Below, one piece after another: positions 16,413 to 49,633 of a stretch of 64,000 nt of DNA (the stretch's first letter is position 1; every line of letters begins with the position of its first letter). The stretch is from positions 47,823 to 111,822 of the forward strand of contig CAZYJR010000008.1 of assembly GCA_964647905.1 (NCBI GenBank). The letters run 5' to 3'. A program made the translations under genes and the position numbers. The notes below the pieces were generated by a model. That model saw only the letters and a program-made list of their open reading frames with translations. It was not told where the DNA came from and ran no database searches. This stretch comes from an uncultured Desulfobacterales bacterium. Its GTDB lineage: Bacteria > Desulfobacterota > DSM-4660 > Desulfatiglandales > HGW-15.

Positions 16413-16415
16413 GGC

Positions 16416-27582: not shown

Positions 27583-27642
27583 CTATTCGCCCCGGGCACA
27601 AGACAACCCGCCTTCCGGTCCCTTAAACACGCCCGCCTGAGC

Positions 27643-28929: not shown

Positions 28930-29069
28930 TTTTGAGGCTCCTCCTTTAAGAATTTTCACTTCTCAGATTCTACCACCTTGTGGTATGATGTATCAAGTCT
29001 TAAACCGAACCAAAGGATATCCGCCCCGGCGCGGTGACCCGGGACGTGGAGAGCACCGGAGAGAACCTG

Positions 29070-30260: not shown

Positions 30261-30843
30261 CCTCAGGATCATTGCCTCTTGGATAGAGCCCGGATCCACG
30301 GTCCTGGACCTGGGCTGCGGAGAGGGCGACCTCCTGGTCCTGCTCAGGGACCGGAAGGGGGTTCAGGGATTCGGCATCGAGCTGGTGGAGTCCAAGGTGG
30401 CCCGTTGCATAGCAAGGGGGCTCTCCGTAATCCAGGGCGACATGAACCTGGAGGTCATGGATTACGCGGATCGGTCTTTCGACTATGTAGTCCTGAGCCG
30501 GACCCTGCAGCAGGCATACAAACCGGACGATCTGATCCGGTCAATGCTGAGGATCGGCAAGAGAGGAGTGGTCAGCTTCCCCAACTTCGGCCACTGGCGC
30601 GTCAGATGGCAGCTCCTGACAACGGGCCGTGCGCCGGTCACCCGCCAACTCCCCTATCAGTGGTATGACACACCTAACATCCGGGTCCTCACCTTGAAAG
30701 ACTTCCGAAGATTTTCGAAGCAGGTGGGCTTCGAGATCTTTCGGGAGGTCCCGGTAGTCACCGACGAAGAAAGCGCCAGCGGAAAGACGGTGACGACCCT
30801 CCCCAATCTCCGGGCCACCTATGGTATCTTCCTGATCGGGTAG
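30250..30843 (+). CDS. metW: Methionine biosynthesis protein MetW
   Basis: GTG after GGAGG. MRFDLRIIASWIEPGSTVLDLGCGEGDLL is the canonical MetW N-terminus. Overlaps metX. Confidence 0.85.
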   Translation: MRFDLRIIASWIEPGSTVLDLGCGEGDLLVLLRDRKGVQGFGIELVESKVARCIARGLSVIQGDMNLEVMDYADRSFDYVVLSRTLQQAYKPDDLIRSMLRIGKRGVVSFPNFGHWRVRWQLLTTGRAPVTRQLPYQWYDTPNIRVLTLKDFRRFSKQVGFEIFREVPVVTDEESASGKTVTTLPNLRATYGIFLIG

Positions 30844-36128: not shown

Positions 36129-36359
36129 TCATGTAACATTCTTTATTCGAACGGCCTCCAGCGGGCAGGCCTCGATGCAGTCCCAGCAGGCCATGCACAT
36201 GTCCTGGAAGATTGCGGGCGATTCAAAGGCCCCGTCTATCTGCTTGGCCACTTTGTGAGTACAGGCCGATGCGGCCGCACAAAGCCCCTCCTCGGGGTTG
36301 CATTCCCCGGGGTTGCATATCTCATAATCTATCATGGCAAAGGTCTTCTTGGGCTGCAT
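36129..36359 (-). CDS. Small ferredoxin-like 4Fe-4S protein
   Basis: 76 aa. Motif CMACWDCIEACP plus an atypical N-terminal Cys set (CNPGEC...C...C). Last gene of the DsrE/Lpd operon. Confidence 0.6.
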   Translation of the reverse strand: MQPKKTFAMIDYEICNPGECNPEEGLCAAASACTHKVAKQIDGAFESPAIFQDMCMACWDCIEACPLEAVRIKNVT

Positions 36360-36373
36360 TCCCGCCTTCTCTT

Positions 36374-37810
36374 CTATCCGTGGAGCGATCGACCCGCAGC
36401 CTTCAAAGAGGCCTCGAACATTATCTCGGGCAAGGTGGGATGTGCGTGAATGGTCTCGGCCAGATCGCTGACAGTCGCCCCCATCCTTACGGCCAATGTC
36501 GCCTCGGCGATCAGGTCGGTCGCATGAGGACCGATGATATGTACGCCCAATACCCGGCTGGTACCAATTTCGGAGATGATTTTGGCCTGTCCCGCGATCT
36601 CTCCCATCACCTGAGGCTTGCCCAGGGCTCTGAAGAGCACGCTGCTCGATTGAACTTCACGGCCCTGATCCCCGGCCTGAGACTCGGTCAGACCGACTCC
36701 CGCAACCTCGGGAGAGGTGAAGACGGCGTTCGGCACGGCCTGGTAGTCCATAGTGCAATCTCCTCCGGCCGCGTTCTCGGCGGCAACCAGGCCCTCGGCG
36801 GTGGCCACATGGGCCAGCATGACCCTGGAAGGCCCCAGGACGTCTCCTATGGCATACACATCAGGATTGCTGGTCACCATACGGTGATCGGCCGAGACCC
36901 AGCCCTGGCCGTCGAGCTCCACGCCGAGGGAACCGAATCCCTCGATCCCGGAGGTGTTGGGAGTGCGCCCGATACAAACCAAGACCTTGTCCACCTGCTC
37001 AAAAAACGGTTTCTTGTCTTTTTCCGTAGGGTTTTCCAGGAAAGGGGACGGACCGATTTCCACGCTCAGCCGGCCGTCCCTTTCCTCGAGACCGGCTACG
37101 GTCCTATTGAGTATGAAATTGATTTTTCGTTTCTTCATTTCCCGCTGGAGGATCTTGGAGCAGTCCTCATCCAATGAGGGCAAGGGCAGCAGGCGGGAGA
37201 GGGCCTCCACGACGGTCACTTTGGATCCCAGTGCGGAGAGCATGCATGCGAACTCGCACCCGATCACCCCGCCTCCCACGATCAGAACGGACTCCGGCAC
37301 CTCCTCCAGGCCGAGGGCGTGATTGCTGGAGAGGACCCTCTCTCCGTCAAATTCCAGACCGGGTAGCTCAAAGATGCTGCTGCCCGTTGCCAGAATCAGC
37401 TTGTCCCAGGGCACCTGCTCCTCGTCCCCATTCCCGGTCCTGACCCCGAGCATGCCGCGCCCCTTTATGTAGCCGGTTCCTTGGATGTACCGGATGCGGT
37501 TCTGTTTCAACAACTTCAAGATGCCGCTTCTCTGGTCGCTGATGACCTTTCGCTTTCTCTCCATCAAGGCAGGCATGTCGGCACGGGCCGCGCCCTCCAA
37601 GGTGATGCCGAATGATTCGGCCTTTCTGATCTTATCTAATAACTCCGCCGTGGTGATCATCACCTTTGAGGGAATGCAGCCCCAGTTCAGGCAGGTGCCC
37701 CCGACGTCATCCCTCTCTATGACGGTCACCTCCGCGCCCATCCGGGCCGCTCCCACTGCGGCTGTGTATCCACCCGGGCCTGCACCGAGTACGGCAATCC
37801 TTGTCGCCAT
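36374..37810 (-). CDS. Dihydrolipoyl-dehydrogenase-like FAD/NAD(P)H pyridine nucleotide-disulfide oxidoreductase
   Basis: ATG at 37810 after GAGAGGAG. GAGPGGY dinucleotide fold, redox disulfide GGTCLNWGCIPSK, and C-terminal HAHPTLPE His-Glu dyad. Confidence 0.85.
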   Translation of the reverse strand: MATRIAVLGAGPGGYTAAVGAARMGAEVTVIERDDVGGTCLNWGCIPSKVMITTAELLDKIRKAESFGITLEGAARADMPALMERKRKVISDQRSGILKLLKQNRIRYIQGTGYIKGRGMLGVRTGNGDEEQVPWDKLILATGSSIFELPGLEFDGERVLSSNHALGLEEVPESVLIVGGGVIGCEFACMLSALGSKVTVVEALSRLLPLPSLDEDCSKILQREMKKRKINFILNRTVAGLEERDGRLSVEIGPSPFLENPTEKDKKPFFEQVDKVLVCIGRTPNTSGIEGFGSLGVELDGQGWVSADHRMVTSNPDVYAIGDVLGPSRVMLAHVATAEGLVAAENAAGGDCTMDYQAVPNAVFTSPEVAGVGLTESQAGDQGREVQSSSVLFRALGKPQVMGEIAGQAKIISEIGTSRVLGVHIIGPHATDLIAEATLAVRMGATVSDLAETIHAHPTLPEIMFEASLKAAGRSLHG

Positions 37811-37830
37811 GGGTCTCCTCTCCCGCTCCT

Positions 37831-38163
37831 TCAAAGAATTCCTATGACGCGATCACAGGAATCCATTAAATCAACCAGAGATTCATATGAACCCGTCAAA
37901 ACTTCCTGCCCGGCGGTGCCCACCTCGATGCCCCGCAGCCGGGCGTCGTCGCTCAGGACATGGACCTCCGCTTTCATATCCATCAGCTTACGGAGATCAA
38001 CGGGCCCTGGAGTCCTTGTCCCGAGAGAGCAAAAGCGGACGCCCTCTTGCAGCAGGAAAAGGCTTACGCTGTGACCTTTTGCAAGCATGTCCTCGGCGGT
38101 CTGGAGCGCACGCCCGGCATTGTCGGTCCCGGGCCCGCTCTTGAGAAGAAGGCCTATCTTCAT
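37831..38163 (-). CDS. DsrE/DsrF/DsrH-family protein (third of three)
   Basis: 110 aa. MKIGLLLKSGPG...SVSLFLLQEGV pattern typical of the DsrE-fold family. Confidence 0.65.
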   Translation of the reverse strand: MKIGLLLKSGPGTDNAGRALQTAEDMLAKGHSVSLFLLQEGVRFCSLGTRTPGPVDLRKLMDMKAEVHVLSDDARLRGIEVGTAGQEVLTGSYESLVDLMDSCDRVIGIL

Positions 38164-38178
38164 GATCCAGCTCCTTTA

Positions 38179-38559
38179 TCAGAATATGAGTTGGAGGCTC
38201 GTTGACGTCATCAGCTCTGATAACTTTTGGCGATCAATGATCTCCAACTCTTCAACCAGGTCATCTTCACCGAGGCCCCGTTTATCGAGCGACTCTTTCT
38301 CTACGTAGAACTCTGCGGGCGTCTCCTTCTTCTCGTATAGTCCCTTTGCAATGACCTCCTCCAAGGTTTCGCTCATTGACAGCCACGGTCGCTCGCCCGG
38401 GTCTTGATCCGCTTTGGCCAAGTAGACCCCGTCATCGATCAAGACGAAGACCGGCCGAAACCCCATGGCTATGGCGCCGTTTGTATGGCGAAGCCCCTCG
38501 GCCGCCTGAAACCCCCCGTAAGGCCCCCTGCGGACGACTATCAGAACATCCTGGGTCAT
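38179..38559 (-). CDS. DsrE/DsrF-family protein (Cys-less, DsrF/TusC-like position)
   Basis: 126 aa with SD AAAGGAGGAAG. VLIVVRRGPYGG...VFVLIDDGVY pattern and no cysteine. Confidence 0.65.
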   Translation of the reverse strand: MTQDVLIVVRRGPYGGFQAAEGLRHTNGAIAMGFRPVFVLIDDGVYLAKADQDPGERPWLSMSETLEEVIAKGLYEKKETPAEFYVEKESLDKRGLGEDDLVEELEIIDRQKLSELMTSTSLQLIF

Positions 38560-38574
38560 GACTTCCTCCTTTGC

Positions 38575-38928
38575 CTAAGGACCCACATTCAAGACTACGT
38601 CGGTCTCACTCAGGATTTGAAAAAGGCTCTTCAAGGTGCCGGGAGCGGCGCCCTCTATGAACTGCTCTTTTCGCAGACCGCGAAAACTAAAGCAGGTCCC
38701 TCAGAGATCCACCCGAACCCCCTGTTCAATCAGATCGGCGAAGCCCTTCTCGGCATTGGGCGCTCCCGACGCCCTCTGCCCCTTCAAGAACCCGTAAGTG
38801 CCGTCGCCCGAGCCCACCACGGTCAAGCCATGTCCCTTGCTCTTTGCGGCCTTCGCGATCCCCAGGACGGTATCCATGTCCTGGCCGCTGTAAGGCGACG
38901 AACTCAGCATCAAGGTGATATTTTTCAT
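38575..38928 (-). CDS. DsrE-like selenoprotein (in-frame UGA = Sec at codon 76)
   Basis: ATG at 38928 (MKNITLMLSSSPYSG...). TGA at 38703-38701, then 41 further in-frame codons (GTCFSFRGLRKEQFIEG...DVVLNVGP) to TAG at 38575. The UGA sits where DsrE/TusD carry the conserved active-site Cys (V-C-G-x-C). A SECIS-like hairpin follows. Confidence 0.7.
38662..38695 (-). other. SECIS-like hairpin downstream of the DsrE UGA
   Basis: RNA CUGCU-UUAG-UUUUCGC-GGUCU-GCGAAAA-G-AGCAG: 12 bp in total, starting 6 nt after the UGA. The apical GGUCUG is identical to the E. coli fdhF SECIS loop as I recall it. Confidence 0.6.
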
Positions 38929-38965
38929 TGATCTTCGCGCCTCCTTTTCTGATAGTCTTGGTGTC

Positions 38966-39418
38966 TCAGTCAGGATTCCTTTCTCTTTGGAGCTTGGATA
39001 TAAGAAATCTAGCGCCCCTGCGGGAGAGCCCGAGCCTCCCTGCAAGGGTCTCCTCATCCACGGGTCCCTCGGCCCTGAGGATCTCGAGCACCTCGGCCTC
39101 CAGCTCATCCAGCCAGTCCTCGAACAGGACAAGCAGCTCCGGATCCGCGATGGCCCGCAGCTGTTCGGACTGAGTCACCTTGTCCACCAGGCTGCGGCAC
39201 ATCTGCGTTGGGTCGACACCTTCGCCCATGCACTCGGCCAGTCACAGATACACCAGGCCGGACACCTTGTCCCCCTCGGATCCCCCGATCATATTCATGA
39301 GAAACCGTTCACGGGCCTCTTCATCCAGGTCCGCGAGAAGCCTTCCCAGGACTTCGGTGATCTTGGACAGGGCCTCTTCAGGATCCATTCCGGCGACGGC
39401 TTGTAGGAGTTCGTTCAT
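38966..39418 (-). CDS. Candidate selenoprotein with C-terminal winged-helix (AsnC/Lrp-type HTH) domain; in-frame UGA at codon 59
   Basis: ATG at 39418 (GGAG 4 nt upstream), 58 codons, TGA at 39244-39242, then the same frame continues into the 87-aa track ORF, whose own ATG lacks an SD. Context is ...SGLVYL-U-LAEC.... C-terminal EILRAEGPVDEETLAGRLGLSRRGARFLISKLQ. Confidence 0.5.
39204..39232 (-). other. SECIS-like hairpin downstream of the second UGA
   Basis: GGGCGA-AGGUG-UCG(A)CCC with a bulged A and outer pairs. The loop GGU falls at +22..+24 after the UGA, exactly as in the DsrE gene. Confidence 0.45.
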
Positions 39419-39442
39419 TTTACTCCACGCCCCTCCGTGGCA

Positions 39443-39778
39443 TCAAAAGGTTAAGGAGGCGTTCCTGGAGGCCAAGAGCTCGGCCGCCACACCGCTCAGC
39501 TCGCCTATCACATCCAGGATCCTGTGATCCGCCAGTTCGTAGTAGACAAACGGTCCCTTGCGCTCCACCCTCACCAGCAACGAGCGTTTGAGCTCCTTCA
39601 AGTGGTGCGATACCAACGGCTGCGACAACTCCAGCTCCTCCACGATGGCAGAGACCGATTTCTTCCCCCCGCTGAGGAGCAGCAGTATTCTCAAGCGGTT
39701 GCCGTCCGAGAGGCACTTGGCCAGAAAGGCCGCCAGCTGCAGGTGATCGTCATCCAAACCTGGCACACCCTTTTTCAA
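39443..39778 (-). CDS. ArsR/SmtB-family transcriptional regulator
   Basis: NRLRILLLLSGGKKSVSAIVEELELSQPLVSHHLKELKRSLLV...FVYYEL. The start (TTG at 39778 or a downstream GTG) is uncertain. Confidence 0.85.
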   Translation of the reverse strand: MKKGVPGLDDDHLQLAAFLAKCLSDGNRLRILLLLSGGKKSVSAIVEELELSQPLVSHHLKELKRSLLVRVERKGPFVYYELADHRILDVIGELSGVAAELLASRNASLTF

Positions 39779-39801
39779 TATATAAATGAATATTTATATA
39801 T
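39778..39801. promoter_or_regulatory. AT-rich 10-4-10 perfect inverted repeat (candidate ArsR operator)
   Basis: ATATATAAAT-GAAT-ATTTATATAT immediately upstream of arsR. 19 of 21 nt are shared with the element at 40581-40600. Confidence 0.5.
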
Positions 39802-40420
39802 CATGAGTCCCCTTGTCAACGACGATTTGATCCCCCCCTATCGGCTCTTGTGGCTGCTTCAGTCCCAGCAGACCATAATGATATGGAGGCAAATCAATGG
39901 TACCCCCTTCGATTGAAAACCCGGCCTGCTCGATCCATAGGCGGCATTCAGAAGGGCGCGGCCGGATTCCCATTGAAGGGCCGCGAGGGGTGGCGGGATC
40001 GTAGTTCCAGTGGATGACCGCCACCCGACCCCCGGGTCTGAGGATGCGCCGGGCCTCGCCCAGCAATGCGAGGGGGTCTTCGGCGTGCATGATGTTGAAA
40101 AGCATTGCCAGGTCCACCGAATCCGGCGGGAGCCCGGAGCCTTGGCCTACGAAGTCGCGCAAATGAGTCTTGACGTTCCCGCAACCCATCTCTCGAGCAC
40201 GGCGCCCGCATTCCTCTATCATGGCGGGTTCGATGTCCAGGCAATGGATAGTCCCGCTTATCCTCTTGGCGGCGGGAACCGCAAAGGTCCCATACCCGCA
40301 GCCGAAGTCCACGGCGTCCCGTACGGTCCGGTCCACCCTCAGAGCGGTGAATATCCGGTCCAGGTCAAAGAACGACTCCCATGCCTCCTCGTCCGGCATG
40401 TCGCTTTCCCGGGTCTTCAT
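39794..40420 (-). CDS. Class I SAM-dependent methyltransferase
   Basis: 208 aa. Motif I VDFGCGYGTF and post-I LDIEPAM; RILRPGGRVAV. Confidence 0.8.
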   Translation of the reverse strand: MKTRESDMPDEEAWESFFDLDRIFTALRVDRTVRDAVDFGCGYGTFAVPAAKRISGTIHCLDIEPAMIEECGRRAREMGCGNVKTHLRDFVGQGSGLPPDSVDLAMLFNIMHAEDPLALLGEARRILRPGGRVAVIHWNYDPATPRGPSMGIRPRPSECRLWIEQAGFSIEGGTIDLPPYHYGLLGLKQPQEPIGGDQIVVDKGTHDI

Positions 40421-40453
40421 TCCGGCTTCCTCCCGCTCCCCCGCCTCGAGCTG

Positions 40454-40540
40454 TCAAGCGGCCTCCGCCGGCAGGCTGAGCGCTCCTTTGCGGCATGCGG
40501 CAACGCACAGGTTGCACTTCAGGCAGTCCCCGTCTCGCAC
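40454..40540 (-). CDS. Candidate 28-aa mini-ferredoxin sORF
   Basis: GTG after GGGGGAGGAG. Encodes (M)RDGDCLKCNLCVAACRKGALSLPAEAA with a single C-x2-C-x2-C-x3-C motif. Lies 33 nt upstream of the methyltransferase and is below the ORF-track size cut-off. Confidence 0.3.
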   Translation of the reverse strand: MRDGDCLKCNLCVAACRKGALSLPAEAA

Positions 40541-40580
40541 GATTTCCACTCCTCCCCCTCACGGCCGAGATGCCAACACC

Positions 40581-40600
40581 AAATAAATGTATATTTATAT
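40581..40600. promoter_or_regulatory. Second copy of the AT-rich ArsR-type operator-like element
   Basis: AAATAAATGTATATTTATAT (core ATAAAT-GTAT-ATTTAT), lying between tauE and the sORF/methyltransferase. Confidence 0.45.
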
Positions 40601-40670
40601 GTTGTTGGAGCGTTTGTCAATCAAAATCTTCCAGCCAGCACGGCGGCTCTTCGACTGAGCCGCAGCGATC

Positions 40671-41462
40671 TCAAATGATCCCGGAGGCCAGGGCCATGGC
40701 GATCCCGAAGAGAAGCAGGCCGGTCAAGGTCTGGACTGCACGCATGGTGACTTTGTGAAGAAACCGCCGGCCTATGAGCACGCCGGCGAACGCGGCAAGG
40801 ATTCCCGCGGCGATCAAGGGCCATTGTTCAGGCCCGAGCGGATTCGCCGCCTCCGCCAGGAAGAATGCGGCCGCATAGGTCGCGATCCGCGCCGTGTCCA
40901 CCATGAAACCGATCATGGCGTTGGTTCCCACAAACGCCTCGGTGGAAACGGCCGTCTTTGCAAGAAAGGCGGAGCGAAGCGCCCCCTGGTGCCCTGAGAA
41001 CCCTCCGAAGAAGCCTGACAGGAGACCACCCAGGACCAAGTGCCGGGGTTCGAACTGGACCGCCCTCAGGCGCGGCAGGAGCTCGAACAACGCGAAGGCC
41101 AGCATGAGGGCACCCATGGCGAGCTTCACAGGGGTAATCACCGCCATCCTGGGGCCCAGTGAATACCTGGCTATCTCCCCCAGATGGGATACATACCCCA
41201 GCGCGGCGGCACCCGCGAAAGCCGCCCCTATGGCGGGAATCCCGAATCGAAGGACAAGCCCCCGGTCCATGTGCCTGCCGACGACGGCGATCTTGAAGGC
41301 GTTGTTCGCGCCGTGGACCACTGCAGTGGCCGCGACCGCCACCTCCACCGGAAAGAATAAGGCGAAAACAGGCATGAGAAGGGTCCCCAGCCCGAACCCT
41401 GAAAAGAGGGTCAACCCCGAGACCAAGAGCGCCGCACAGGGCACCACGATGAACTCCATCAT
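40671..41462 (-). CDS. TauE/SafE (DUF81) family anion exporter
   Basis: 263 aa, about 8 TM segments, Gly-rich internally duplicated pattern typical of TauE/SafE. Confidence 0.75.
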   Translation of the reverse strand: MMEFIVVPCAALLVSGLTLFSGFGLGTLLMPVFALFFPVEVAVAATAVVHGANNAFKIAVVGRHMDRGLVLRFGIPAIGAAFAGAAALGYVSHLGEIARYSLGPRMAVITPVKLAMGALMLAFALFELLPRLRAVQFEPRHLVLGGLLSGFFGGFSGHQGALRSAFLAKTAVSTEAFVGTNAMIGFMVDTARIATYAAAFFLAEAANPLGPEQWPLIAAGILAAFAGVLIGRRFLHKVTMRAVQTLTGLLLFGIAMALASGII

Positions 41463-41511
41463 TCGCTCCTATGCCCCCCGGGCATCCCGGAGGCTCGTAT
41501 TCCAGCATGCA

Positions 41512-41865
41512 TCATTCACCTTTGGGCCTTCCTTCGTCTTCACCGAGCACCACCTCGCGGTAGAGCTCCTCTACCCGGCTCTTCACGAACTCCAGCGCCT
41601 GCCGGCCGCCCGGGGTCAATGAGTACTCCTTCCTGGCCCGCGGACCCCGGCCCGGATCCTTCCTGCACTCCAGCCATCCGCGCCCCTCCAGCCTGGCCAA
41701 CAGGGGGTAAATCGTCCCCGGGCTGACCTCGTAGCCGTGTCTTCGAAGCTCCCGGATCATCCACTGCCCCACCACCGGGCCCCGGGCGGCGTGGTGAAGG
41801 ATGTGAACCTTCCAGAACCCGAGCAGGATCTCCCTTTGAAACGCCTTGGTCTCCGATGTGTCCAT
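41512..41865 (-). CDS. PadR-family transcriptional regulator
   Basis: HGYEVSPGTIYPLLARLEGRGWL is the PadR wHTH signature. Confidence 0.85.
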   Translation of the reverse strand: MDTSETKAFQREILLGFWKVHILHHAARGPVVGQWMIRELRRHGYEVSPGTIYPLLARLEGRGWLECRKDPGRGPRARKEYSLTPGGRQALEFVKSRVEELYREVVLGEDEGRPKGE

Positions 41866-41973
41866 GGGGTCCTCCTCAACACATAACGCTTAGCATAATC
41901 GATAACCGTAAAGAAGTCAGCCCTATTGGACCCTCCTGTGGACGACAGGCCTCTTGACTCTAAGTGTAAATTG

Positions 41974-41991
41974 ATGCATATTCGTATGCAT
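41974..41991. promoter_or_regulatory. 7-bp inverted repeat overlapping the vapB start (candidate autoregulatory operator)
   Basis: ATGCATA-TTCG-TATGCAT. A TTGACT -35-like box lies at 41954. Confidence 0.35.
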
Positions 41992-42187
41992 GCGTACAAC
42001 GTTAAACATTGATGATGAAACTCTTGAAAGGGCCATGCAGCTCACCGGCATTCGAGAGAAGACCGCGCTGGTCAGGCGGGGACTGGAAGCCCTGATCGCT
42101 CAAGAGAGCAGCAAACGCCTGGCCAAGCTGGGCGGCACCGAAGGCCGGCTTGAGCAGCCCCGAAGGCGGCGCCCACCGGGCTTCTAG
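41990..42187 (+). CDS. vapB: VapB-type (DUF2191) antitoxin
   Basis: MRTTLNIDDETLERAMQLTGIREKTALVRRGLEALI is the canonical family N-terminus. Confidence 0.8.
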   Translation: MRTTLNIDDETLERAMQLTGIREKTALVRRGLEALIAQESSKRLAKLGGTEGRLEQPRRRRPPGF

Positions 42188-42549
42188 TGATGGTGCTCGT
42201 GGACACCTCTATCTGGGTTGACCATTTTAGGCGTGGAAACCGCCGCCTCAAGGCCCTTCTCCTGGACGCCCAAGTCGCCTGTCATCCCTTCGTAATAGGA
42301 GAGCTCGCCTGCGGCAACCTGGAAAACCGAGCTGAAATCCTCGCCCTTCTCGTCTCACTTCCAGCGCCACCGATTCTGTCCCGGGAGGAGTTCCTTCATT
42401 TCATAGACCGGCATCGCCTTATGGGCCGGGGGATCGGGTTCGTGGATGTCCACCTCCTTGCCTCGGCCCGCATTTCGGGACTGCAGTTGTGGACCTCTGA
42501 TAAGAGGCTCTTATCCGCAGCCCGGGAACTAGGCCTGTCATATGGTTGA
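42187..42549 (+). CDS. vapC: VapC PIN-domain ribonuclease toxin
   Basis: LVDTSIWVDHFR...VIGELACG... PIN acidic residues. Its start overlaps the vapB stop. Confidence 0.85.
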   Translation: MMVLVDTSIWVDHFRRGNRRLKALLLDAQVACHPFVIGELACGNLENRAEILALLVSLPAPPILSREEFLHFIDRHRLMGRGIGFVDVHLLASARISGLQLWTSDKRLLSAARELGLSYG

Positions 42550-43055
42550 TGACAACACCGACGTACGCCGGGGGTGAGGGCGTTACGGACATGATTAAAA
42601 TAAGAAATTGCAAAGCACTGCCTGATTTTGATTTGGCCCTTCAAATCATCAGAGACTACATCCAATGGCTGGATATGGATCTTTGTTTTCAGGATATAGA
42701 CAATGAATTGTCGGGATTCAGCACCATCTACTCGCCACCCGGCGGGGCGTTTCTGATTGCATATCATGGAGATGCTCCGGCCGGCGGCGGGGGCGTGAGA
42801 AGGCTCGAGCCCGGGGTCTGCGAGATGAAGCGCCTGTTCGTGTATGAGCGGTTCAGGGGGTGGGGGGTGGGGAGGGCCTTATGCACCGCATTGATCAGGG
42901 AAGCGAAGGAATTGGGATATGATAAGATGCGGCTGGACACCCTGGGGCGCATGAAGACCGCGGCAAGGCTCTACGAAGGCCTGGGGTTCAAGGAAATCGA
43001 GCCCTACCGATTCAACCCGGATCCAGGGGTGAAATACATGGAGCTGGAGCTGTGA
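42549..43055 (+). CDS. GNAT-family N-acetyltransferase
   Basis: RLFVYERFRGWGVGRAL acetyl-CoA motif A. The start is uncertain (42549 or ATG 42591). Confidence 0.8.
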   Translation: MTTPTYAGGEGVTDMIKIRNCKALPDFDLALQIIRDYIQWLDMDLCFQDIDNELSGFSTIYSPPGGAFLIAYHGDAPAGGGGVRRLEPGVCEMKRLFVYERFRGWGVGRALCTALIREAKELGYDKMRLDTLGRMKTAARLYEGLGFKEIEPYRFNPDPGVKYMELEL

Positions 43056-46700: not shown

Positions 46701-47399
46701 CAAGAGCTCCAGCGTGTCCCTGTCCCCCTCCCTGACCGCGAAGCAGAAGTCCTGGCGGAACTCCGAAACGGGCCTGTTTACTATCCGCAGGTTTGTCAGC
46801 CCTATGTCCCTGATCAGGCGGAGAGCCACCAGGCGCTGGATGACCACCGCGTCATGGAGGCCCTGCGAGAGCTCGCGAAGGGCGTCCTCAAAGGTGGCGG
46901 TCGTGTGTATCCTTATCCCCCGATCCTCCCGGCGCAGGAACTCCTCGGTGTTGTCCCCTTTCATGACGGCCACCCGCCGCCCCTCCAGGTCCCTTATGTC
47001 GAGGATGCCCTTGGTTTCCTCCCTCACCACTATTGCGCCGTGAAGAGACATGTAGGGGAAGGTGAAGTCAAACAGTTCCTCCCGCTCGGGCGTGCGGCCC
47101 ACCAGGGGCAGGGCCTGGATCCCGCCTCTTTCCAGCCAACCCTTTACCTCGTCCCAAGGCCCCACCCGGAAGGTGACATCATGGCCCATTGCATGGAGCG
47201 CAGCGCGCATCAGCTCCACTGAGAAGCCGCCGGCAAGGCCGTCCTCGTCCACGATGCAAAAGGGCGGGTAATCGTACTCGCACCCGGAGATGACCGTGGG
47301 CCTGGTCAACGGGGCGGTCTCCGCGGCCTGTGCCGGGCCTTGAATCAGAAGCACCAATACCGAGGCGATGACCACGGACGGCGGCAGGCAGCGTTTCAT
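43740..47399 (-). CDS. Hybrid sensor histidine kinase (3x periplasmic solute-binding domains, TM, PAS, GAF, HisKA, HATPase, REC)
   Basis: The ATG at 47399 ([25 protein letters not shown] signal) overlaps the upstream stop. Three SBP_bac_3-like repeats. H-box [10 protein letters not shown]-boxes GTGLGLATV, and C-terminal ILVVEDE...TDVVMPGM receiver. Confidence 0.85.
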
Positions 47400-48796
47400 C
47401 AGAATGAATACCTCAAGCCCAAGTACCAGTTGGTGTTGTCCTTGAACCGGCCGAAGAACGTGTGATCCTCTTCTCCTGCAAACAGGTTTCCGCCGGTCTC
47501 CACGGTCCATTCGTCATTGACCTTGTAGGTGATCTTGGGCCTGAAGTAGGCGTCCTGATCGAAAGGCGAGTAAAAGGTGAAGAGGGAAAGAGTGAGGTCT
47601 TGATTCATGAGCAGCTTGGTGAGCCTGAGGGTCAGGAGGTGCCGGTTCTCGTCCCGGGCCCTGGACCCCGGCGGCAGGCGTCGCCTGTAGACCTCATAGT
47701 CCATCATATGCTCCAGGTAGTACTGCAACGACCCGGTGAACTCCTTGGCCAGCTCCCGCTCATAGCCTATCAGCAACCGGATTTCGCTGTTGTTGATAAA
47801 CGGGTCGAGACCGTCCCCGTTCTCCCGGGAGTCATAAAACCCCAACTCCAGGTTGCCGATCCCATGCCCCAGGGGGCCTTGAATGCTGGCCCCGTACACA
47901 TTGAGCCCGGGGAACAGGTAATCTCCGGATGCAGGATCCATGCCCGCGGGGCTCTTCCAATACCCGAAATAGCCGTAGAAGGCCAACTCGTAACCGGATA
48001 TGTTCCTATACGCCCTGAGAGCGATCTCATCGTGGTCGAACCAATGGTCCGGCTCCCTGGCGGCGATCCGGTGGTCTTCGCCCGCGATCCGCCCGAGTGA
48101 GGAGTTCCAATAGCTCAGCCTCTCCCCGTCTATGAAGCGGTCCGGGTCGAATCTGGGCGTATAGACCAGGTTGAGATTCAATGCATCGGTGAACCAGCCG
48201 ATGCGAACCGCGTTCCCTGGCGCCTTCAAGTACTCCACGTCCCTGCCGCTCAAGAACGACACCCAGTCCTTGGGAAAGAGATCATTGATGAAGATGAGGT
48301 CTCCCGTGCCCCAGGAGAGGACTTGGCGGCCCGCCCGCACGTCCACCGAGGGCAGGGGAGAAAAGGTGAAGCGGGCCCGCCGCCAGTCAACGGACGCCTC
48401 ATCGGTCACCCCGTCCAGGACCGCGTCGGCCGTTAGCTCCAAGGCCCCGGAGTCCCGGAACTTCTCCGTCTCGAGCTGCAGGCGTGCCTCCCCCAGGGTG
48501 GCGCTCTCGGATTGGGTGGGATCATCCCGGAGCCGCGGTCCGAACCTACCCTCCACATACCCGTGCAAGGGTATGTCGAGCAAGGCCTTTCCGCCGGGTT
48601 CCTCGGGTGTCGACTCCCGCCCGGAGCGCTCCGGTCCCTCCCCTGACAAGCCGGGAGGGAGTGCGGGCTCGGGTGAGGCTTCCTCCCCGAGACCGGCGGG
48701 CAGGGCCGGCTCATCTGCCTTCGCCTCTTGGGCGGCCCCGAGGAAAAGGGCGGCCGCTGCCAGCAGAACCGCCCGGATCGCTTTTCCCCTGCTCAT
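47399..48796 (-). CDS. Outer-membrane beta-barrel protein (partner of LolA-like/RND exporter)
   Basis: Signal peptide ...GAAQEAKA. Alternating beta-strand pattern and C-terminal ...GLRYSF aromatic terminus. ATGA overlap with the upstream gene. Confidence 0.6.
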   Translation of the reverse strand: MSRGKAIRAVLLAAAALFLGAAQEAKADEPALPAGLGEEASPEPALPPGLSGEGPERSGRESTPEEPGGKALLDIPLHGYVEGRFGPRLRDDPTQSESATLGEARLQLETEKFRDSGALELTADAVLDGVTDEASVDWRRARFTFSPLPSVDVRAGRQVLSWGTGDLIFINDLFPKDWVSFLSGRDVEYLKAPGNAVRIGWFTDALNLNLVYTPRFDPDRFIDGERLSYWNSSLGRIAGEDHRIAAREPDHWFDHDEIALRAYRNISGYELAFYGYFGYWKSPAGMDPASGDYLFPGLNVYGASIQGPLGHGIGNLELGFYDSRENGDGLDPFINNSEIRLLIGYERELAKEFTGSLQYYLEHMMDYEVYRRRLPPGSRARDENRHLLTLRLTKLLMNQDLTLSLFTFYSPFDQDAYFRPKITYKVNDEWTVETGGNLFAGEEDHTFFGRFKDNTNWYLGLRYSF

Positions 48797-49590
48797 CTCA
48801 GATATTCCCGCGGGGCCCGGCGGAGGTACCGCTCGGTGAAGATATCCTCCGGCAGGTCGTTATCGTATGCGACATCGCTGAACTCGAGGACAGTGTTCCC
48901 GCCGCCCTCGAGATCGCTCATCCGCTGCTTGGTGATGGTCTTTCGCCCCTGGATGTCCTTTACCTCCAGCACGGTCATCTCCCTGTACTTGTTGTCTCCT
49001 CTGTAATACTCCGCCTTCACCGGCAGGAATGTGGACTTGTGAACGTACACTATGTAGTAGTCGAACTCCACGTTATCCGGGTTCTTGGGCGTGTTTTTCA
49101 GGACGTAATAGTTCTCCGTGGTATCCGCCAATTCGTGCGAGTCCTCCTCGACACCCCGGCCTGATACGTCCTCGTAGAAGAAATGGGAGCCCACGAAGCT
49201 GGTCCGCTCGTCCGAAGCGGCGATGCGCTTGGTCACATCCAGGGCCGGCAGGTAGAGCCAGCGGTCGTCGTCGCGGCCCACGTGCTTCCACACCAGGAAC
49301 ACCGTGCCCCGCTCATCCGATGGCCGGTGAAAATACACATAGAAGCGCTGTTCCATGTCCCGGTCATCCATGTTCTTCCTGAGGATGGTAAGGGACTTGT
49401 TCCTGGTCCTGCCCTGGGCGTCGGTGATGGTCATCTCCACCCTGGCTTTGCCGTCCTCGCCCTGGTAGTAGGCCATGTGATTGGCCTCGGAGACGATCTC
49501 TTCCACGCTCGGTGCGGCGAGCGCGGGGATAACGCCCGGGGCCGACGCCACGAATACCACGATCAACCAGGCAAACACCTTCTTTCCCAT
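48793..49590 (-). CDS. Outer-membrane lipoprotein-sorting (LolA-like) protein
   Basis: Signal peptide. Family-typical YQGEDGKARVEMTI...RWLYLPAL...RIAASDERTSFVGSHFFYED. Confidence 0.7.
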   Translation of the reverse strand: MGKKVFAWLIVVFVASAPGVIPALAAPSVEEIVSEANHMAYYQGEDGKARVEMTITDAQGRTRNKSLTILRKNMDDRDMEQRFYVYFHRPSDERGTVFLVWKHVGRDDDRWLYLPALDVTKRIAASDERTSFVGSHFFYEDVSGRGVEEDSHELADTTENYYVLKNTPKNPDNVEFDYYIVYVHKSTFLPVKAEYYRGDNKYREMTVLEVKDIQGRKTITKQRMSDLEGGGNTVLEFSDVAYDNDLPEDIFTERYLRRAPREYLR

Positions 49591-49633
49591 AACCGACTCC
49601 TTTTTCCTTTCTCGTTCAAGCCGTGGATCAACC

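What the first reader, a model, noticed from the sequence alone, without database searches (positions are those of the whole stretch)
36129..41865. Candidate selenium-dependent sulfur/chalcogen relay-reductase cluster under ArsR/PadR control
All genes are on the minus strand and tightly spaced. In order they are PadR, a TauE/SafE anion exporter, an AT-rich operator-like element, a 28-aa single-cluster ferredoxin sORF, a SAM methyltransferase, a second copy of the operator, ArsR, the Sec-wHTH protein, DsrE(Sec), a Cys-less DsrF-like protein, a third DsrE-family protein, an Lpd-like CxxxxC flavoprotein disulfide reductase and a small ferredoxin. DsrE-fold proteins carry persulfide sulfur. Lpd/CoADR-type flavoproteins reduce disulfides and persulfides with NAD(P)H. 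TauE exports sulfite-like anions. Small SAM methyltransferases (TehB-like) methylate Se/Te/As species. I do not know this combination, with Sec at the relay site, as a described system. One hypothesis is an NAD(P)H-driven persulfide, polysulfide or selenide handling or detoxification module. Function is inference only.
Basis: inference. Interest (0 to 1): 0.8.

Follow-up and report, generated by a model that had tools for sequence, protein, structure and literature searches.

The report
Tso-regulated selenocysteine DsrEFH-like relay operon
This gene cluster from a sulfate-reducer-type bacterium pairs a recently named selenoprotein regulator cassette (TsoR/TsoA) with a three-protein sulfur-carrier complex whose active site is selenocysteine, a complex that databases annotate only in truncated form, followed by a lipoamide dehydrogenase, so it is a new variant of a known system and probably handles reactive sulfur or selenium.

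Summary
Both in-frame TGA codons are genuine selenocysteine codons. The "ArsR + Sec-wHTH" pair is TsoR + TsoA of the already named "three selenoprotein operon" (Tso), and both pass NCBIfam cut-offs. The canonical partners TsoB and TsoC are absent. In their place is DsrE(Sec)-DsrF-like-DsrH-like, with a U-G-T-C centre.

This trio occurs in the same order in all 37 distinct loci recovered, always with TGA. All 139 database homologues of DsrE(Sec) stop at residue 75, and no NCBIfam model names it.

Lpd follows the trio directly in 11 of 28 loci, and TsoA precedes it in 10 of 33. The 76-aa ferredoxin is confined to the nearest relatives. PadR-TauE and the ferredoxin sORF-methyltransferase are separate modules.

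A palindromic promoter-operator occurs twice in the window and upstream of TsoR in 36 other loci.

In relatives, Lpd and the trio sit among GcvH, LipA, LipB, NifS, GcvH-related protein and TsoY.

Best reading: a TsoR/TsoA-controlled, NADH/Lpd(-lipoyl)-driven, selenocysteine-based carrier/reductase for sulfane sulfur or selenium. The function is inferred. It is a new variant of a known kind.

The parts
41512..41865 (-). PadR-family regulator. It is a separate module paired with TauE.
   Evidence: PF03551 at 63.8 bits, and Rv3488-family at 89.7 bits, below its cut-off. A PadR-TauE pair with overlapping or adjacent genes is also seen in L037 and L116.
40671..41462 (-). TauE/SafE-family anion exporter.
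   Evidence: PF01925 at 75.7 bits. A 75%-identical copy sits 7 kb upstream of TsoR in L010. TauE lies directly next to TsoR-TsoA in L090, L110 and L116.
40573..40620 (-). Tso-type promoter-operator, copy 2. It consists of TTGACA, a 14-nt spacer, then a long palindrome with the core ATAAAT-N4-ATTTAT. It lies in front of the Fer4 sORF and the methyltransferase.
   Evidence: The core is at 40583-40598. There are 2 matches in the window against 0.01 expected. The architecture matches copy 1 and the sites upstream of TsoR in 36 other loci.
40454..40549 (-). It is unverified.
   Evidence: PF00037 at 21.2 bits against a cut-off of 21.1. No counterpart was found in any other locus. Its TGA stop is in frame with the methyltransferase, but no methyltransferase homologue has a Fer4 N-terminus.
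39794..40420 (-). Class I SAM methyltransferase with a TPRGPP motif. Its substrate is unknown.
   Evidence: Methyltransf_25 at 57.8 bits. All specific NCBIfam models score far below their cut-offs. There are 7798 homologues in the representative library. It is not conserved next to the trio, but other SAM methyltransferases recur in 8-9 Tso or trio loci.
39777..39819 (-). Tso-type promoter-operator, copy 1. It overlaps the 3' end of the methyltransferase gene and lies in front of tsoR.
   Evidence: The core is at 39782-39797. The same TTGACA-N14-ATATAAAY-N4-RTTTATAT arrangement lies within 500 bp upstream of TsoR in 36 loci. There are 42 exact matches in 0.98 Mb of loci.
39443..39778 (-). TsoR, an ArsR/SmtB-type repressor. 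The likely start is TTG 39757.
   Evidence: NF045707 at 156.3 bits against a cut-off of 115. It precedes TsoA in essentially all 80 TsoA-anchored loci. It has no invariant Cys.
38966..39418 (-). TsoA, the LULAxC-motif selenoprotein. Sec is encoded at 39242-39244. The N-terminal helical domain carries U59, C63 and C74, and the C-terminus is a winged helix-turn-helix.
   Evidence: NF045695 at 212.9 bits against 170. U, C and C are invariant in 82/82 sequences. The stem-loop at about 39195-39240 is conserved at the nucleotide level. The C-terminal ~50 residues of the model superpose on DeoR, Lrp and Zalpha wHTH domains, though the model is weak at pLDDT 64.
38575..38928 (-). DsrE(Sec), a 117-aa YchN-like DsrE-fold protein. 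Sec76 is encoded at 38701-38703 within an L-U-G-T-C motif. The SECIS hairpin is at 38669-38685.
   Evidence: PF02635 at 61.5 bits. The site is TGA in every homologous locus, and U76 and C79 are the only invariant Sec/Cys positions. The hairpin shows compensatory changes. The best solved relative is YchN 1jx7, where Sec aligns with the first Cys of its C-K-T-C. All 139 database homologues are truncated at residue 75.
38179..38559 (-). DsrF/TusC-like subunit with no Cys.
   Evidence: PF02635 at 46.3 bits. TIGR03010 scores 43.5 bits, below its cut-off of 94. The family profile matches DsrF 2hy5_B at E 4.5e-9. There are 283 close homologues.
37831..38163 (-). DsrH/TusB-like third subunit. This assignment is weak.
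   Evidence: PF02635 at 31.1 bits. PF04077 (19.7 bits) and TIGR03011 (20.6 bits) are both below cut-off. DsrH 2hy5_C matches at E 0.11. Its Cys residues are not invariant: C45 in 25/31 and C103 in 20/31.
36374..37810 (-). Dihydrolipoyl dehydrogenase (Lpd), with the redox-active CLNWGC motif and the C-terminal HAHPTLPE motif.
   Evidence: TIGR01350 at 484.7 bits against 408.8. The best solved relatives are all Lpd, led by 6uzi at E 3e-93, with MerA scoring lower. It lies 20 bp after the DsrH-like gene. It is directly downstream of the trio in 11 of 28 loci, plus 2 more on cut contigs.
36129..36359 (-). 76-aa ferredoxin with two Cys clusters, of the RLI N-terminal type.
   Evidence: NCBIfam RLI N-terminal region at E 7e-7. 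It is present only in the window organism (L005) and its nearest relative (L006/L036). It occupies the position that GcvH or GcvH-related protein holds in other loci.

Best explanation
The locus is a variant Tso operon.

Regulation. TsoR is an ArsR-type repressor that sits on a long palindrome overlapping the -10 region. Together with the selenoprotein TsoA, it controls two transcription units. TsoA has a U-x3-C-x10-C domain plus a wHTH, and I infer that it is the chalcogen-sensing partner, because TsoR has no conserved Cys. The first unit is the Fer4 sORF plus methyltransferase. The second is tsoR-tsoA-dsrE(U)-dsrF-dsrH-lpd-fd.

Cargo. The cargo here is not the canonical TsoB/TsoC. It is a DsrEFH/TusBCD-like complex whose only redox centre is Sec76-x-x-Cys79 on the YchN-like DsrE subunit.

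Proposed mechanism (inferred):
1. The selenolate attacks sulfane sulfur (persulfide or polysulfide) or a selenium species and carries it as Se-S(n) or Se-Se.
2. Cys79 resolves the adduct, releasing sulfide or selenide and leaving a selenenylsulfide.
3. That selenenylsulfide is re-reduced with NADH by Lpd. This may happen directly, or through a lipoyl carrier (GcvH or GcvH-related protein) that is encoded at this position in relatives.
4. Exporters (TauE here, TsoY elsewhere) and SAM methyltransferases are accessory disposal routes.

What is shown and what is inferred. Shown: gene identities, both Sec sites, conservation of the trio, the operator, and the mosaic of accessory genes. Inferred: complex formation, the substrate, electron flow from Lpd, and the sensing role of TsoA.
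For: - TsoR and TsoA pass their NCBIfam equivalog cut-offs.
- The Sec sites and SECIS elements are validated.
- The trio is invariant in order and content in 37 distinct loci, with 15-bp spacers.
- U76 and C79 are the only invariant Sec/Cys residues in the three proteins.
- The operator occurs twice in the window against 0.01 expected. It lies upstream of TsoR in 36 loci. It also lies in front of the trio where tsoR is not upstream (L038, L025), in front of TsoY-trio (L034), and in front of an SQR-like flavoprotein (L010).
- In 80 TsoA-anchored loci, TsoR-TsoA is constant while the downstream cargo varies. TsoB(-TsoC) follows in 44, the DsrE(U)FH trio is adjacent in 6 (downstream in 5, upstream in L061), and TauE is adjacent in 3.
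- Lpd lies 20-110 bp after the trio in 11/28 loci.
- Lpd is followed by GcvH+LipA (L007, L008) or by NF045810 GcvH-related protein (L010, L011, L079/82). The latter also sits between TsoA and TsoB in L059.
- A NifS-like cysteine desulfurase and LipB lie directly upstream of the trio in L007/L008.
- The design parallels known persulfide-stress operons. One is S. aureus tauE-cstR-cstA-cstB-sqr (PMC5480029). The other is the set of ArsR-regulated sHdr-LbpA clusters, which always carry DsrE/TusA transferases (PMC11094781).
Against: - There are no experimental data for any component.
- About half of the trio loci have neither Lpd nor TsoR/TsoA nearby, and no operator within 900 bp. The trio therefore does not need an adjacent reductase.
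- Lpd scores as an ordinary housekeeping Lpd, and in some relatives it lies among ordinary glycine-cleavage and lipoate genes.
- The window itself encodes no lipoyl carrier.
- The TsoA model is of low confidence, at pLDDT 64.
- Nothing here discriminates sulfur, selenium, tellurium or arsenic as the substrate.
- I could not read Haft & Tolstoy 2025, so part of this may already be stated there.
Confidence: 0.45

Rival explanations
1. Selenium rather than sulfur is the substrate. The trio and Lpd reduce and carry selenium from selenite or selenotrisulfides, or tellurium. The product is then delivered as selenide, methylated by the SAM methyltransferases, or exported by TauE or the TehA-like TsoY.
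For: - The U-G-T-C motif matches the CGxC motif of the DsrE-like domain of the selenium-metabolism protein YedF. There is a weak TIGR03527 hit at exactly this stretch, and the motif is described in PMC5322559.
- TsoY belongs to the SLAC1/TehA family.
- SAM methyltransferases recur in these loci.
- NifS-like enzymes can act as selenocysteine lyases. The SclA model gives a partial score.
- Review PMC13188914 links the Haft selenoprotein neighbourhoods to metal and metalloid resistance.
- From my own knowledge, Lpd enzymes show tellurite and selenite reductase activity in vitro.
Against: - No selD, selA, selB, yedE or yedF lies in the window or in the loci examined.
- An SQR-like gene sits behind a TsoR operator, TsoB has a rhodanese domain, and TauE is a sulfite-exporter family. 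All three point at least as strongly to sulfur.
- The YedF hit is far below its cut-off, at 15 bits against 110.
Confidence: 0.2
2. The trio belongs functionally to lipoate and glycine-cleavage metabolism. Lpd is simply the housekeeping L-protein. DsrE(U)FH relays sulfur from the NifS-like desulfurase to lipoyl synthase, or it repairs or protects the dithiol of lipoyl-GcvH. The Tso link is regulatory only.
For: - L007 reads NifS-LipB-trio-Lpd-GcvH-LipA.
- L008 reads NifS-trio-Lpd-GcvH-LipA.
- L001 and L038 have the trio beside gcvT-H-PA-PB-lipB-lipA.
- Lpd passes the Lpd equivalog model.
Against: - Most trio loci, including this window, have no lipoate or gcv genes nearby.
- A U-x-x-C redox pair is not what single-Cys persulfide carriers use.
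- Recruitment to TsoR/TsoA operons together with TsoY, a J-domain protein and methyltransferases looks like a stress response.
Confidence: 0.2
3. This is a metalloid (arsenite or antimonite) response. TsoA binds As(III) through Sec/Cys/Cys, in the manner of ArsD next to ArsR. The trio, the methyltransferase and the exporters then handle thio-arsenic species.
For: - TsoR is named an ArsR/SmtB metalloregulator.
- The three invariant soft ligands in TsoA resemble three-coordinate As(III) sites, from my own knowledge.
- An ArrA-like respiratory arsenate reductase lies at 126-2708 in the same window, scoring 1271 bits.
- The methyltransferases give weak ArsM-family hits.
Against: - ArrA is 35 kb away.
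- No arsB, acr3, arsC or arsM genes lie in or beside the cluster.
- The ArsM scores are far below their cut-offs.
- No ars genes recur in the 120 loci surveyed.
Confidence: 0.1
4. The trio is a TusBCD orthologue serving 2-thiouridine or selenouridine tRNA modification.
For: The three DsrE-fold genes lie in E-F-H order, like tusD-C-B. There are weak TusC and TusB model hits.
Against: - All three proteins score far below the TusD, TusC and TusB equivalog cut-offs.
- No tusA, tusE, dsrC, mnmA or selU recurs in the neighbourhoods.
- The DsrE subunit is YchN-like with a two-residue redox motif.
Confidence: 0.03

Closest known systems
Tso ('three selenoprotein operon') system. Source: Haft & Tolstoy 2025, mSystems 10:e0141724, as listed in review PMC13188914. 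NCBIfam models: NF045707 TsoR, NF045695 TsoA, NF045694 TsoB, NF045708 TsoC, NF047643 TsoY, NF045809 TsoX.
   Same: TsoR and TsoA are present, adjacent and above cut-off. The promoter-operator is the same as in canonical loci such as L040 and L087. The accessory proteins TsoY, GcvH-related protein and the J-domain protein occur in sister loci that carry the trio.
   Different: TsoB (the rhodanese/DsbD fusion with UxxxxU) and TsoC (NEPxGxxU) are absent from the window. Their place is taken by DsrE(U)-DsrF-DsrH-Lpd. Only two selenoproteins are encoded here. The DsrE(U) trio has no NCBIfam model.
DsrEFH (Allochromatium vinosum, PDB 2hy5) and TusBCD (E. coli, PDB 2d1p) sulfur-relay heterohexamers.
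   Same: Three small DsrE-fold paralogues are encoded in E-F-H order with very short spacers. The middle subunit profile matches DsrF at E 4.5e-9. The reactive residue is on the first subunit.
   Different: - All three score below the equivalog cut-offs.
- The first subunit is closer to YchN than to DsrE or TusD.
- The reactive site is Sec in a U-x-x-C pair rather than a single Cys.
- The DsrH-type Cys is not conserved.
- No DsrC/TusE or TusA partner is nearby.
- The hosts are sulfate-reducer-type Desulfobacterales rather than sulfur oxidisers.
'DsrE-like protein' selenoprotein family (PF02635, UxxC). Source: Zhang/Gladyshev surveys, PMC1794560 and PMC1088965. Listed in PMC13188914 with the example WP_014524487.1.
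   Same: Same Pfam family, same UxxC motif and the same bacterial group, the Deltaproteobacteria.
   Different: In what I could read, that family is listed only as a single protein. I found no account of an obligatory DsrF-like/DsrH-like trio, or of a link to Lpd, lipoate genes or TsoR. I could not test whether the listed example is an orthologue.
[quoted passage not shown]
   Same: YchN is the best solved-structure match, at E 5e-7 over the full length. Sec76 and Cys79 align with YchN's C-K-T-C. YedF carries CGxC.
   Different: From my own knowledge, YchN is a homohexamer of unknown function. It has Cys rather than Sec, and no F or H partners.
Persulfide and reactive-sulfur-stress operons. 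Examples: S. aureus tauE-cstR-cstA-cstB-sqr (PMC5480029) and ArsR-type BigR/SqrR/sHdrR regulons (PMC12423496, PMC10451225).
   Same: The parts list matches. There is a repressor, a sulfurtransferase that includes a DsrE/TusD-type module, a flavoprotein and a TauE exporter. An SQR-like gene sits behind a TsoR operator in L010. CstA takes persulfide from a cysteine desulfurase, which parallels the NifS gene next to the trio in L007/L008.
   Different: - There is no persulfide dioxygenase, as expected for strict anaerobes.
- The reductive partner is Lpd.
- TsoR lacks the two sensing Cys of CstR, BigR and sHdrR.
- Sec-containing TsoA is an extra component with no counterpart.
sHdr-LbpA sulfur-oxidation clusters with DsrE3/TusA transferases and dedicated lipoate assembly (PMC11094781).
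   Same: DsrE-family sulfur carriers are encoded together with a GcvH-like lipoyl protein, lipoate-attachment and lipoate-synthesis genes, and an ArsR-type repressor.
   Different: - No sHdr genes lie in the cluster.
- Lipoate synthesis uses LipA and LipB rather than sLpl(AB) and LipS1/2.
- Lpd is present.
- The window itself has no lipoyl protein.

Membership tests
Tso system (NCBIfam / Haft & Tolstoy 2025) | TsoR, an ArsR/SmtB-type regulator (NF045707) | tested here: met
   156.3 bits against a cut-off of 115.
Tso system (NCBIfam / Haft & Tolstoy 2025) | TsoA selenoprotein with the LULAxC motif (NF045695) | tested here: met
   212.9 bits against a cut-off of 170. The motif reads L-U-L-A-E-C, with TGA at 39242-39244.
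Tso system (NCBIfam / Haft & Tolstoy 2025) | TsoB, a rhodanese/DsbD-like selenoprotein with UxxxxU | tested here: not met
   No such motif or gene in the 64-kb window. TsoB is present after TsoA in 44 of 80 other TsoA loci.
Tso system (NCBIfam / Haft & Tolstoy 2025) | TsoC selenoprotein with NEPxGxxU | tested here: not met
   No motif match in the window.
Tso system (NCBIfam / Haft & Tolstoy 2025) | Shared promoter-operator upstream of tsoR. I derived this feature here; it is not a published criterion. | tested here: met
   The same TTGACA-N14-palindrome occurs in the window (2 copies) and upstream of TsoR in 36 loci.
DsrEFH / TusBCD sulfur relay | Three DsrE-fold subunits encoded in E-F-H order | tested here: met
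   PF02635 hits all three proteins. The order is conserved in 37/37 loci.
DsrEFH / TusBCD sulfur relay | Scores above the equivalog models TIGR03012, TIGR03010 and TIGR03011 | tested here: not met
   13.1, 43.5 and 20.6 bits against cut-offs of 89, 94 and 49.
DsrEFH / TusBCD sulfur relay | Single reactive Cys (Cys78) on DsrE/TusD | tested here: inconclusive
   Sec76 aligns with the first Cys of YchN's CxxC. Direct alignment to DsrE 2hy5_A covered only residues 5-36. Equivalence to Cys78 is therefore inferred.
DsrEFH / TusBCD sulfur relay | Partner proteins TusA and DsrC/TusE | tested here: not met
   No recurrent neighbour family other than TsoR, TsoA and Lpd appeared in clustering of the ORFs of the window and the first 35 loci. 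None appeared in the Pfam-annotated contexts either. Genes located elsewhere in the genome cannot be excluded.
DsrEFH / TusBCD sulfur relay | Alpha2-beta2-gamma2 heterohexamer | not testable with these tools
This needs co-purification or a structure.
DsrE-like selenoprotein (PF02635, UxxC) | DsrE Pfam domain with an in-frame UGA in a UxxC motif, a SECIS element, and conservation downstream of the UGA | tested here: met
   PF02635 at 61.5 bits. The motif is U-G-T-C, with TGA in all loci. The hairpin shows compensatory pairs.
DsrE-like selenoprotein (PF02635, UxxC) | Existence of Cys-containing homologues (a Sec/Cys pair) | tested here: not met
   All 139 detectable homologues stop at the TGA, and no full-length Cys form was found. 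Only the distant YchN has Cys at this position.
Dihydrolipoyl dehydrogenase (E3 / L-protein) | TIGR01350 above cut-off, a CxxxxC redox disulfide and a C-terminal His-Glu dyad | tested here: met
   484.7 bits against 408.8. The motifs are CLNWGC and HAHPTLPE. The top 37 solved relatives are all Lpd.
Dihydrolipoyl dehydrogenase (E3 / L-protein) | A lipoyl-protein partner (GcvH or E2) | tested here: inconclusive
   None in the window. GcvH or GcvH-related protein lies next to the orthologous Lpd in L007, L008, L010, L011 and L079/82.
Persulfide-sensing ArsR-type repressors (BigR, SqrR, sHdrR) | Two conserved sensing cysteines | tested here: not met
   No invariant Cys in 82 TsoR sequences. The BigR model scores 38.5 bits against 155.

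The most novel reading that the evidence does not exclude
DsrE(Sec)-DsrF-DsrH is a previously unrecognised selenoprotein complex of Desulfobacterales. Together with Lpd and a lipoyl carrier (GcvH or GcvH-related protein), it forms a new NADH-driven, lipoate-linked persulfide/perselenide reductase or chalcogen-delivery system. Its expression is governed by TsoA acting as a selenocysteine-containing DNA-binding sensor alongside TsoR. As far as I know, this would be the first selenoprotein transcription factor or co-regulator.
Probability: 0.25. Interest if true: 0.8.

Novelty: new variant of a known kind. Interest (0 to 1): 0.6.

Why it matters
Four reasons this matters if true.

1. A whole selenoprotein family is systematically truncated in public databases. 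All 139 of 139 entries end at residue 75, so its reactive half is invisible to annotation and to metabolic reconstruction of sulfate-reducing sediments.

2. DsrEFH-type genes are commonly used as markers of oxidative sulfur metabolism. A Sec-containing DsrEFH-like trio in sulfate-reducer-type genomes would blur that marker. It would also point to an unstudied cytoplasmic sulfur or selenium handling route in anaerobes, which cannot use persulfide dioxygenases.

3. The recurrent tie to Lpd, GcvH, LipA, LipB and NifS parallels the still unexplained role of lipoyl proteins in sHdr sulfur oxidation. It offers a much simpler system of three small proteins plus Lpd in which to test lipoate-sulfur chemistry.

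4. The operator defined here makes the TsoR regulon computable. It also makes the idea that TsoA is a Sec-based sensor directly testable.

Tried and rejected
- **Ferredoxin sORF as the N-terminus of a Sec-containing methyltransferase.** The sORF's TGA stop is in frame with the methyltransferase ATG. I rejected the fusion. The hairpin after the TGA is not SECIS-like. The methyltransferase has its own ribosome-binding site. None of the homologues with N-terminal extensions has a Fer4 motif. The fused sequence itself could not be submitted.
- **TsoB, TsoC and TsoX in the window.** I searched for their motifs with TGA read-through and found none.
- **Rfam scan of 34-44 kb.** Only chance-level hits.
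- **tRNA-Sec.** No tRNA genes in the window.
- **Terminator and promoter consensus scan.** Nothing above the shuffled background, and no internal terminator.
- **AlphaFold2 model of TsoA.** Low confidence (pLDDT 64). The Foldseek search only confirmed a generic C-terminal wHTH. The N-terminal Sec domain has no informative match.
- **TsoR operator upstream of trios that lack tsoR.** It is present in L038, L025 and L034, but absent within 900 bp in most such loci. The trio is therefore not always in the TsoR regulon.
- **Other recurrent neighbours of the trio.** All-against-all clustering of the ORFs of the window and the first 35 loci found only TsoR, TsoA and Lpd, plus antisense artefacts.
- **Full-length TsoA proteins carrying W at the Sec site.** These are code-4 translation artefacts from JGI, not Sec-to-Trp variants.
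- **Haft & Tolstoy 2025.** I could not obtain it by PMC id, DOI or PubMed id. What it says about DsrE or Lpd neighbours is unknown to me.
- **Organism name.** The cluster look-up gave no name for the source organism.

Full report
**1. What is in the sequence**

Between 36129 and 41865, eleven ORFs lie head to tail on the minus strand. Spacers are 14-49 bp. The exception is a 121-bp gap after TauE, which holds a promoter.

Pfam and NCBIfam identify them as follows:
- PadR (41865-41512).
- A TauE/SafE exporter (41462-40671).
- A 31-codon ORF with one CxxCxxCxxxC motif (40549-40454). Its Fer4 score of 21.2 bits sits right at the cut-off.
- A class I SAM methyltransferase (40420-39794).
- An ArsR/SmtB regulator (39778-39443).
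- A 150-codon gene interrupted by TGA (39418-38966).
- A 117-codon DsrE-fold gene interrupted by TGA (38928-38575).
- A Cys-free DsrF/TusC-like gene (38559-38179).
- A third DsrE-fold gene with weak DsrH/TusB similarity (38163-37831).
- A dihydrolipoyl dehydrogenase (37810-36374). It scores 485 bits on TIGR01350 against a cut-off of 409.
- A 76-residue two-cluster ferredoxin (36359-36129).

**2. Both TGA codons encode selenocysteine**

For the DsrE gene, every homologous locus I recovered has TGA at codon 76. That was 35 of 35 at first and 37 distinct loci in the final count. The protein stays conserved for 41 residues past it, as UGTCFSFRGLRKEQFIEGA.PGTLKSLF.

A hairpin UUCCGC-GGUCU-GCGGAA begins 18 nt after the UGA and is present in all 34 distinct sequences. 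Two of its pairs change on both sides while keeping the pairing. The codons inside it are frozen at synonymous positions.

For the other gene, U59, C63 and C74 are invariant in 82 of 82 sequences. The 35 nt after the UGA are almost invariant at the nucleotide level and form a stem-loop.

Some "full-length" database versions carry Trp at the Sec site. These are genetic-code-4 translation artefacts.

**3. Part of this is already named**

NCBIfam recognises the regulator as TsoR (NF045707, 156 bits against 115). It recognises the Sec-wHTH protein as the "LULAXC motif selenoprotein TsoA" (NF045695, 213 bits against 170).

A 2026 review lists the Tso ("three selenoprotein operon") proteins and credits Haft & Tolstoy 2025:
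- TsoA.
- TsoB, a rhodanese/DsbD fusion with UxxxxU.
- TsoC, with NEPxGxxU.
- TsoX.
- TsoY.

I could not obtain that paper. "DsrE-like protein, UxxC" has been a listed selenoprotein family since the 2005-06 surveys.

The window contains no TsoB, TsoC or TsoX motif. Canonical TsoR-TsoA-TsoB-TsoC operons are seen in L039 and L040.

**4. Neighbourhood test anchored on the DsrF-like protein**

This protein has 283 close homologues. A scan of one genome per species returned 30 loci, all from Desulfobacterales-type MAGs.

After de-duplication there are 37 distinct loci. DsrE(U)-DsrF-DsrH is present in the same order in every one. The other genes are less constant:
- Lpd follows within 300 bp in 11 of the 28 loci that have enough downstream sequence, plus 2 more on cut contigs.
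- TsoA lies directly upstream in 10 of 33 loci, and directly downstream in 2.
- The 76-aa ferredoxin is found only in the window organism and its closest relative.
- The window's methyltransferase and its sORF are not found next to any other trio.
- PadR-TauE is found once, 7 kb away.

About half of the trio loci have none of these partners and sit in unrelated contexts. The conserved unit is therefore the three-gene trio.

**5. Neighbourhood test anchored on TsoA**

I examined 80 metagenome loci. TsoR precedes TsoA in essentially all of them. What lies next to TsoA varies:
- TsoB, usually with TsoC, follows in 44.
- The DsrE(U)FH trio is adjacent in 6, downstream in 5 and upstream in L061.
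- TauE or PadR-TauE is adjacent in 3.
- A small J-domain protein is adjacent to TsoA in about a dozen. In all, 15 loci across both surveys carry this protein.

TsoR-TsoA is thus a constant cassette with exchangeable cargo. The window is the DsrE(U)FH-Lpd variant.

**6. The operator**

The AT-rich element has the core ATAAAT-N4-ATTTAT. It is embedded in a 30-36 bp palindrome, 14 nt downstream of a TTGACA box. It occurs twice in the window against 0.01 expected by chance. One copy lies in front of tsoR and the other in front of the sORF-methyltransferase.

The degenerate form ATAAAY-N4-RTTTAT has 42 exact matches in 0.98 Mb of fetched loci. Of these, 36 lie within 500 bp upstream of tsoR, always with the same TTGACA spacing. 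It also precedes:
- the trio where tsoR is not upstream (L038, L025);
- a TehA-like gene followed by the trio (L034);
- an SQR-like flavoprotein gene (L010).

Most stand-alone trios have no such site within 900 bp.

TsoR has no invariant cysteine. TsoA has an invariant Sec/Cys/Cys set. Its C-terminal ~50 residues superpose on DeoR/Lrp-type winged helices, although the model is weak at pLDDT 64 and the Foldseek E-values exceed 0.1. I infer that TsoA is the sensing partner of TsoR. This is not shown.

**7. Nature of the trio**

DsrE(U) is most similar to E. coli YchN (1jx7, E 5e-7). Sec76 and Cys79 align with YchN's C-K-T-C. [quoted passage not shown]

The middle protein's family profile matches DsrF at E 4.5e-9. 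The third protein matches DsrH only weakly.

All three fall far below the TusD, TusC and TusB equivalog cut-offs. The only invariant redox residues in the three proteins are U76 and C79. This is a two-residue selenol/thiol centre. It differs from the single persulfide-carrying Cys of DsrE and TusD.

All 139 detectable database homologues of DsrE(U) end at residue 75. No NCBIfam model names the protein. It is therefore currently annotated as a truncated "DsrE family protein".

**8. Lpd and the lipoate connection**

The flavoprotein is an ordinary-looking Lpd. Its top 37 solved relatives are all Lpd, with MerA scoring lower. The window has no GcvH, E2, LipA or LipB.

Relatives show a repeated link to lipoate genes:
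- L007 reads [TsoR-TsoA]-NifS-like desulfurase-LipB-trio-Lpd-GcvH-LipA.
- L008 reads NifS-trio-Lpd-GcvH-LipA.
- L001 and L038 have the trio beside gcvT-H-PA-PB-lipB-lipA.
- The 169-aa NCBIfam "GcvH-related protein" (NF045810) follows Lpd in L010, L011 and L079/82. It also sits between TsoA and TsoB in L059.

GcvH or the GcvH-related protein lies within 6.5 kb of the trio in 7 of 25 loci.

Lpd may well be, or double as, the L-protein. But the association runs the other way round. Lipoyl-carrier genes come to the trio in at least three different arrangements. That suggests electrons pass from NADH through Lpd and a lipoyl protein to the Sec centre.

In L010, Lpd is followed by selenoprotein TsoY, a SLAC1/TehA-family transporter scoring 467 bits against 250. 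SAM methyltransferases of another family recur in 8-9 Tso or trio loci.

**9. Most likely mechanism**

Identities, Sec sites, conservation and the operator are shown. Chemistry and regulation are inferred.

TsoR and TsoA repress two promoters until a reactive chalcogen species modifies TsoA. The DsrE(U)FH complex then picks up sulfane sulfur or selenium on Sec76. Cys79 resolves the adduct, and Lpd regenerates the centre with NADH, directly or via a lipoyl protein. Exporters and methyltransferases dispose of the products.

The parts list resembles two known designs:
- The S. aureus cst operon, tauE-cstR-cstA-cstB-sqr, whose CstA sulfurtransferase also strips persulfide from a cysteine desulfurase (PMC5480029).
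- The ArsR-regulated sHdr-LbpA clusters, which always carry DsrE/TusA transferases and lipoate genes (PMC11094781).

The O2-dependent dioxygenase of the cst design would be replaced here by a reductive route. I give this reading a confidence of 0.45.

The rivals are:
- a selenium or tellurium substrate (0.2);
- a role in lipoate or glycine-cleavage maintenance (0.2);
- a metalloid response (0.1);
- tRNA thiolation (0.03).

**10. Verdict**

The locus is not a wholly unknown system. It is a variant of the Tso operon built around a known selenoprotein family. Three things appear to be undescribed in the literature I could search and uncurated in NCBIfam:
- the obligatory Sec-DsrE/DsrF/DsrH trio;
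- its systematic truncation in databases;
- its recurrent coupling to Lpd and lipoate genes.

I rate it a new variant of a known kind, with interest 0.6.

Noticed in passing
window 126-4590 (+): An ArrA-like molybdopterin oxidoreductase at 126-2708 scores 1271 bits on NF041714 over its full length, below the 1600 cut-off. It is followed by a small ORF, probably an Fe-S subunit, at 2720-3445 and an NrfD-type membrane subunit at 3211-4590. This looks like a respiratory arsenate-reductase-like complex, 35 kb from the Tso cluster.
   Followed up: partly
window 13207-17645 (+) and 53695-56409 (-): Two further molybdopterin oxidoreductases. One is of the DMSO-reductase type II family and has an NrfD subunit at 16416-17645. 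The other is FdhA/PhsA-like. The window is unusually rich in chalcogen or oxyanion-reductase-type enzymes.
   Followed up: partly
window 18343-21682 (+): HdrC-like (18343-19044) and HdrB/CCG-domain (19019-19891) ORFs are followed by a NifS-like cysteine desulfurase (20522-21682). That desulfurase is 40% identical to the one next to the trio in L007. Any relation to the cluster was not tested.
   Followed up: no
window 40453-40455 (TGA) and 40420: The TGA stop of the 31-aa Fer4 sORF is in frame with the methyltransferase start 33 nt downstream. No homologue supports a Sec-linked fusion. The sORF is the first ORF behind a TsoR-type promoter and is Cys-rich.
   Followed up: yes
L037 11483-12451; L034 721-1680: A SLAC1/TehA-family transporter is selenoprotein TsoY (NF047643, 467 bits). 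The called ORF ends at model position 321 of 366, presumably at its Sec codon. It lies directly after Lpd in L010/L037. In L034 it lies between a TsoR operator and the trio.
   Followed up: partly
L037 13719-14228; L011 12456-12965; L079 10490-10999; L059 7840-8334: A 169-aa "GcvH-related protein" (NF045810) does not align the canonical lipoyl-lysine. It carries a conserved C-terminal GICKAV tail. It follows the trio-linked Lpd in several loci and sits between TsoA and TsoB in a canonical Tso operon. Whether it is lipoylated is unknown.
   Followed up: partly
L039 10270-10587; L084 7442-7759; L123 6633-6947; L021 4691-5134: A ~105-aa J-domain (DnaJ-like) protein with a conserved HPDKC motif is found in 15 loci. 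It follows TsoA in about a dozen of them. In the others it lies next to the trio or after Lpd.
   Followed up: partly
L037 1509-2881: A TsoR-type promoter-operator precedes a 425-aa flavoprotein related to type III sulfide:quinone reductase (123 bits, below cut-off). That gene is followed by MMPL, LolA-like and DUF1302 genes. The same MMPL/LolA-like/unknown trio lies at 47399-52522 in the window, but there it has no operator.
   Followed up: partly
Public databases: Every database entry for DsrE(U) is a 75-aa fragment. TsoA is mostly stored as separate 58-aa and ~87-aa fragments, or with Trp at the Sec site after code-4 translation of short JGI contigs.
   Followed up: yes
L040 15835-17497: A hybrid-cluster protein (Prismane) gene is called as two ORFs of 92 and 471 aa. 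The cause may be a Sec codon or a frameshift. An Lpd-like flavoprotein only 33% identical to the window Lpd lies next to it.
   Followed up: no
window 41966-41985 and 41990-43055: A perfect 7-bp inverted repeat, ATGCATA-CGAA-TATGCAT, lies upstream of padR and is a possible PadR operator. Between padR and the next minus-strand genes sit a small antitoxin-like ORF, a PIN/VapC-like ORF (42187-42549) and a GNAT-like ORF (42546-43055). These three were read from the translations only.
   Followed up: no
window 25471-30843: This stretch holds hybrid-cluster protein/hydroxylamine reductase (25471-27225, minus strand), O-acetylhomoserine sulfhydrylase (27643-28959, minus strand) and MetX-like plus MetW (29034-30843, plus strand). 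These are sulfide-assimilating methionine-synthesis genes, placed between the Mo-enzyme clusters and the RND pump.
   Followed up: no
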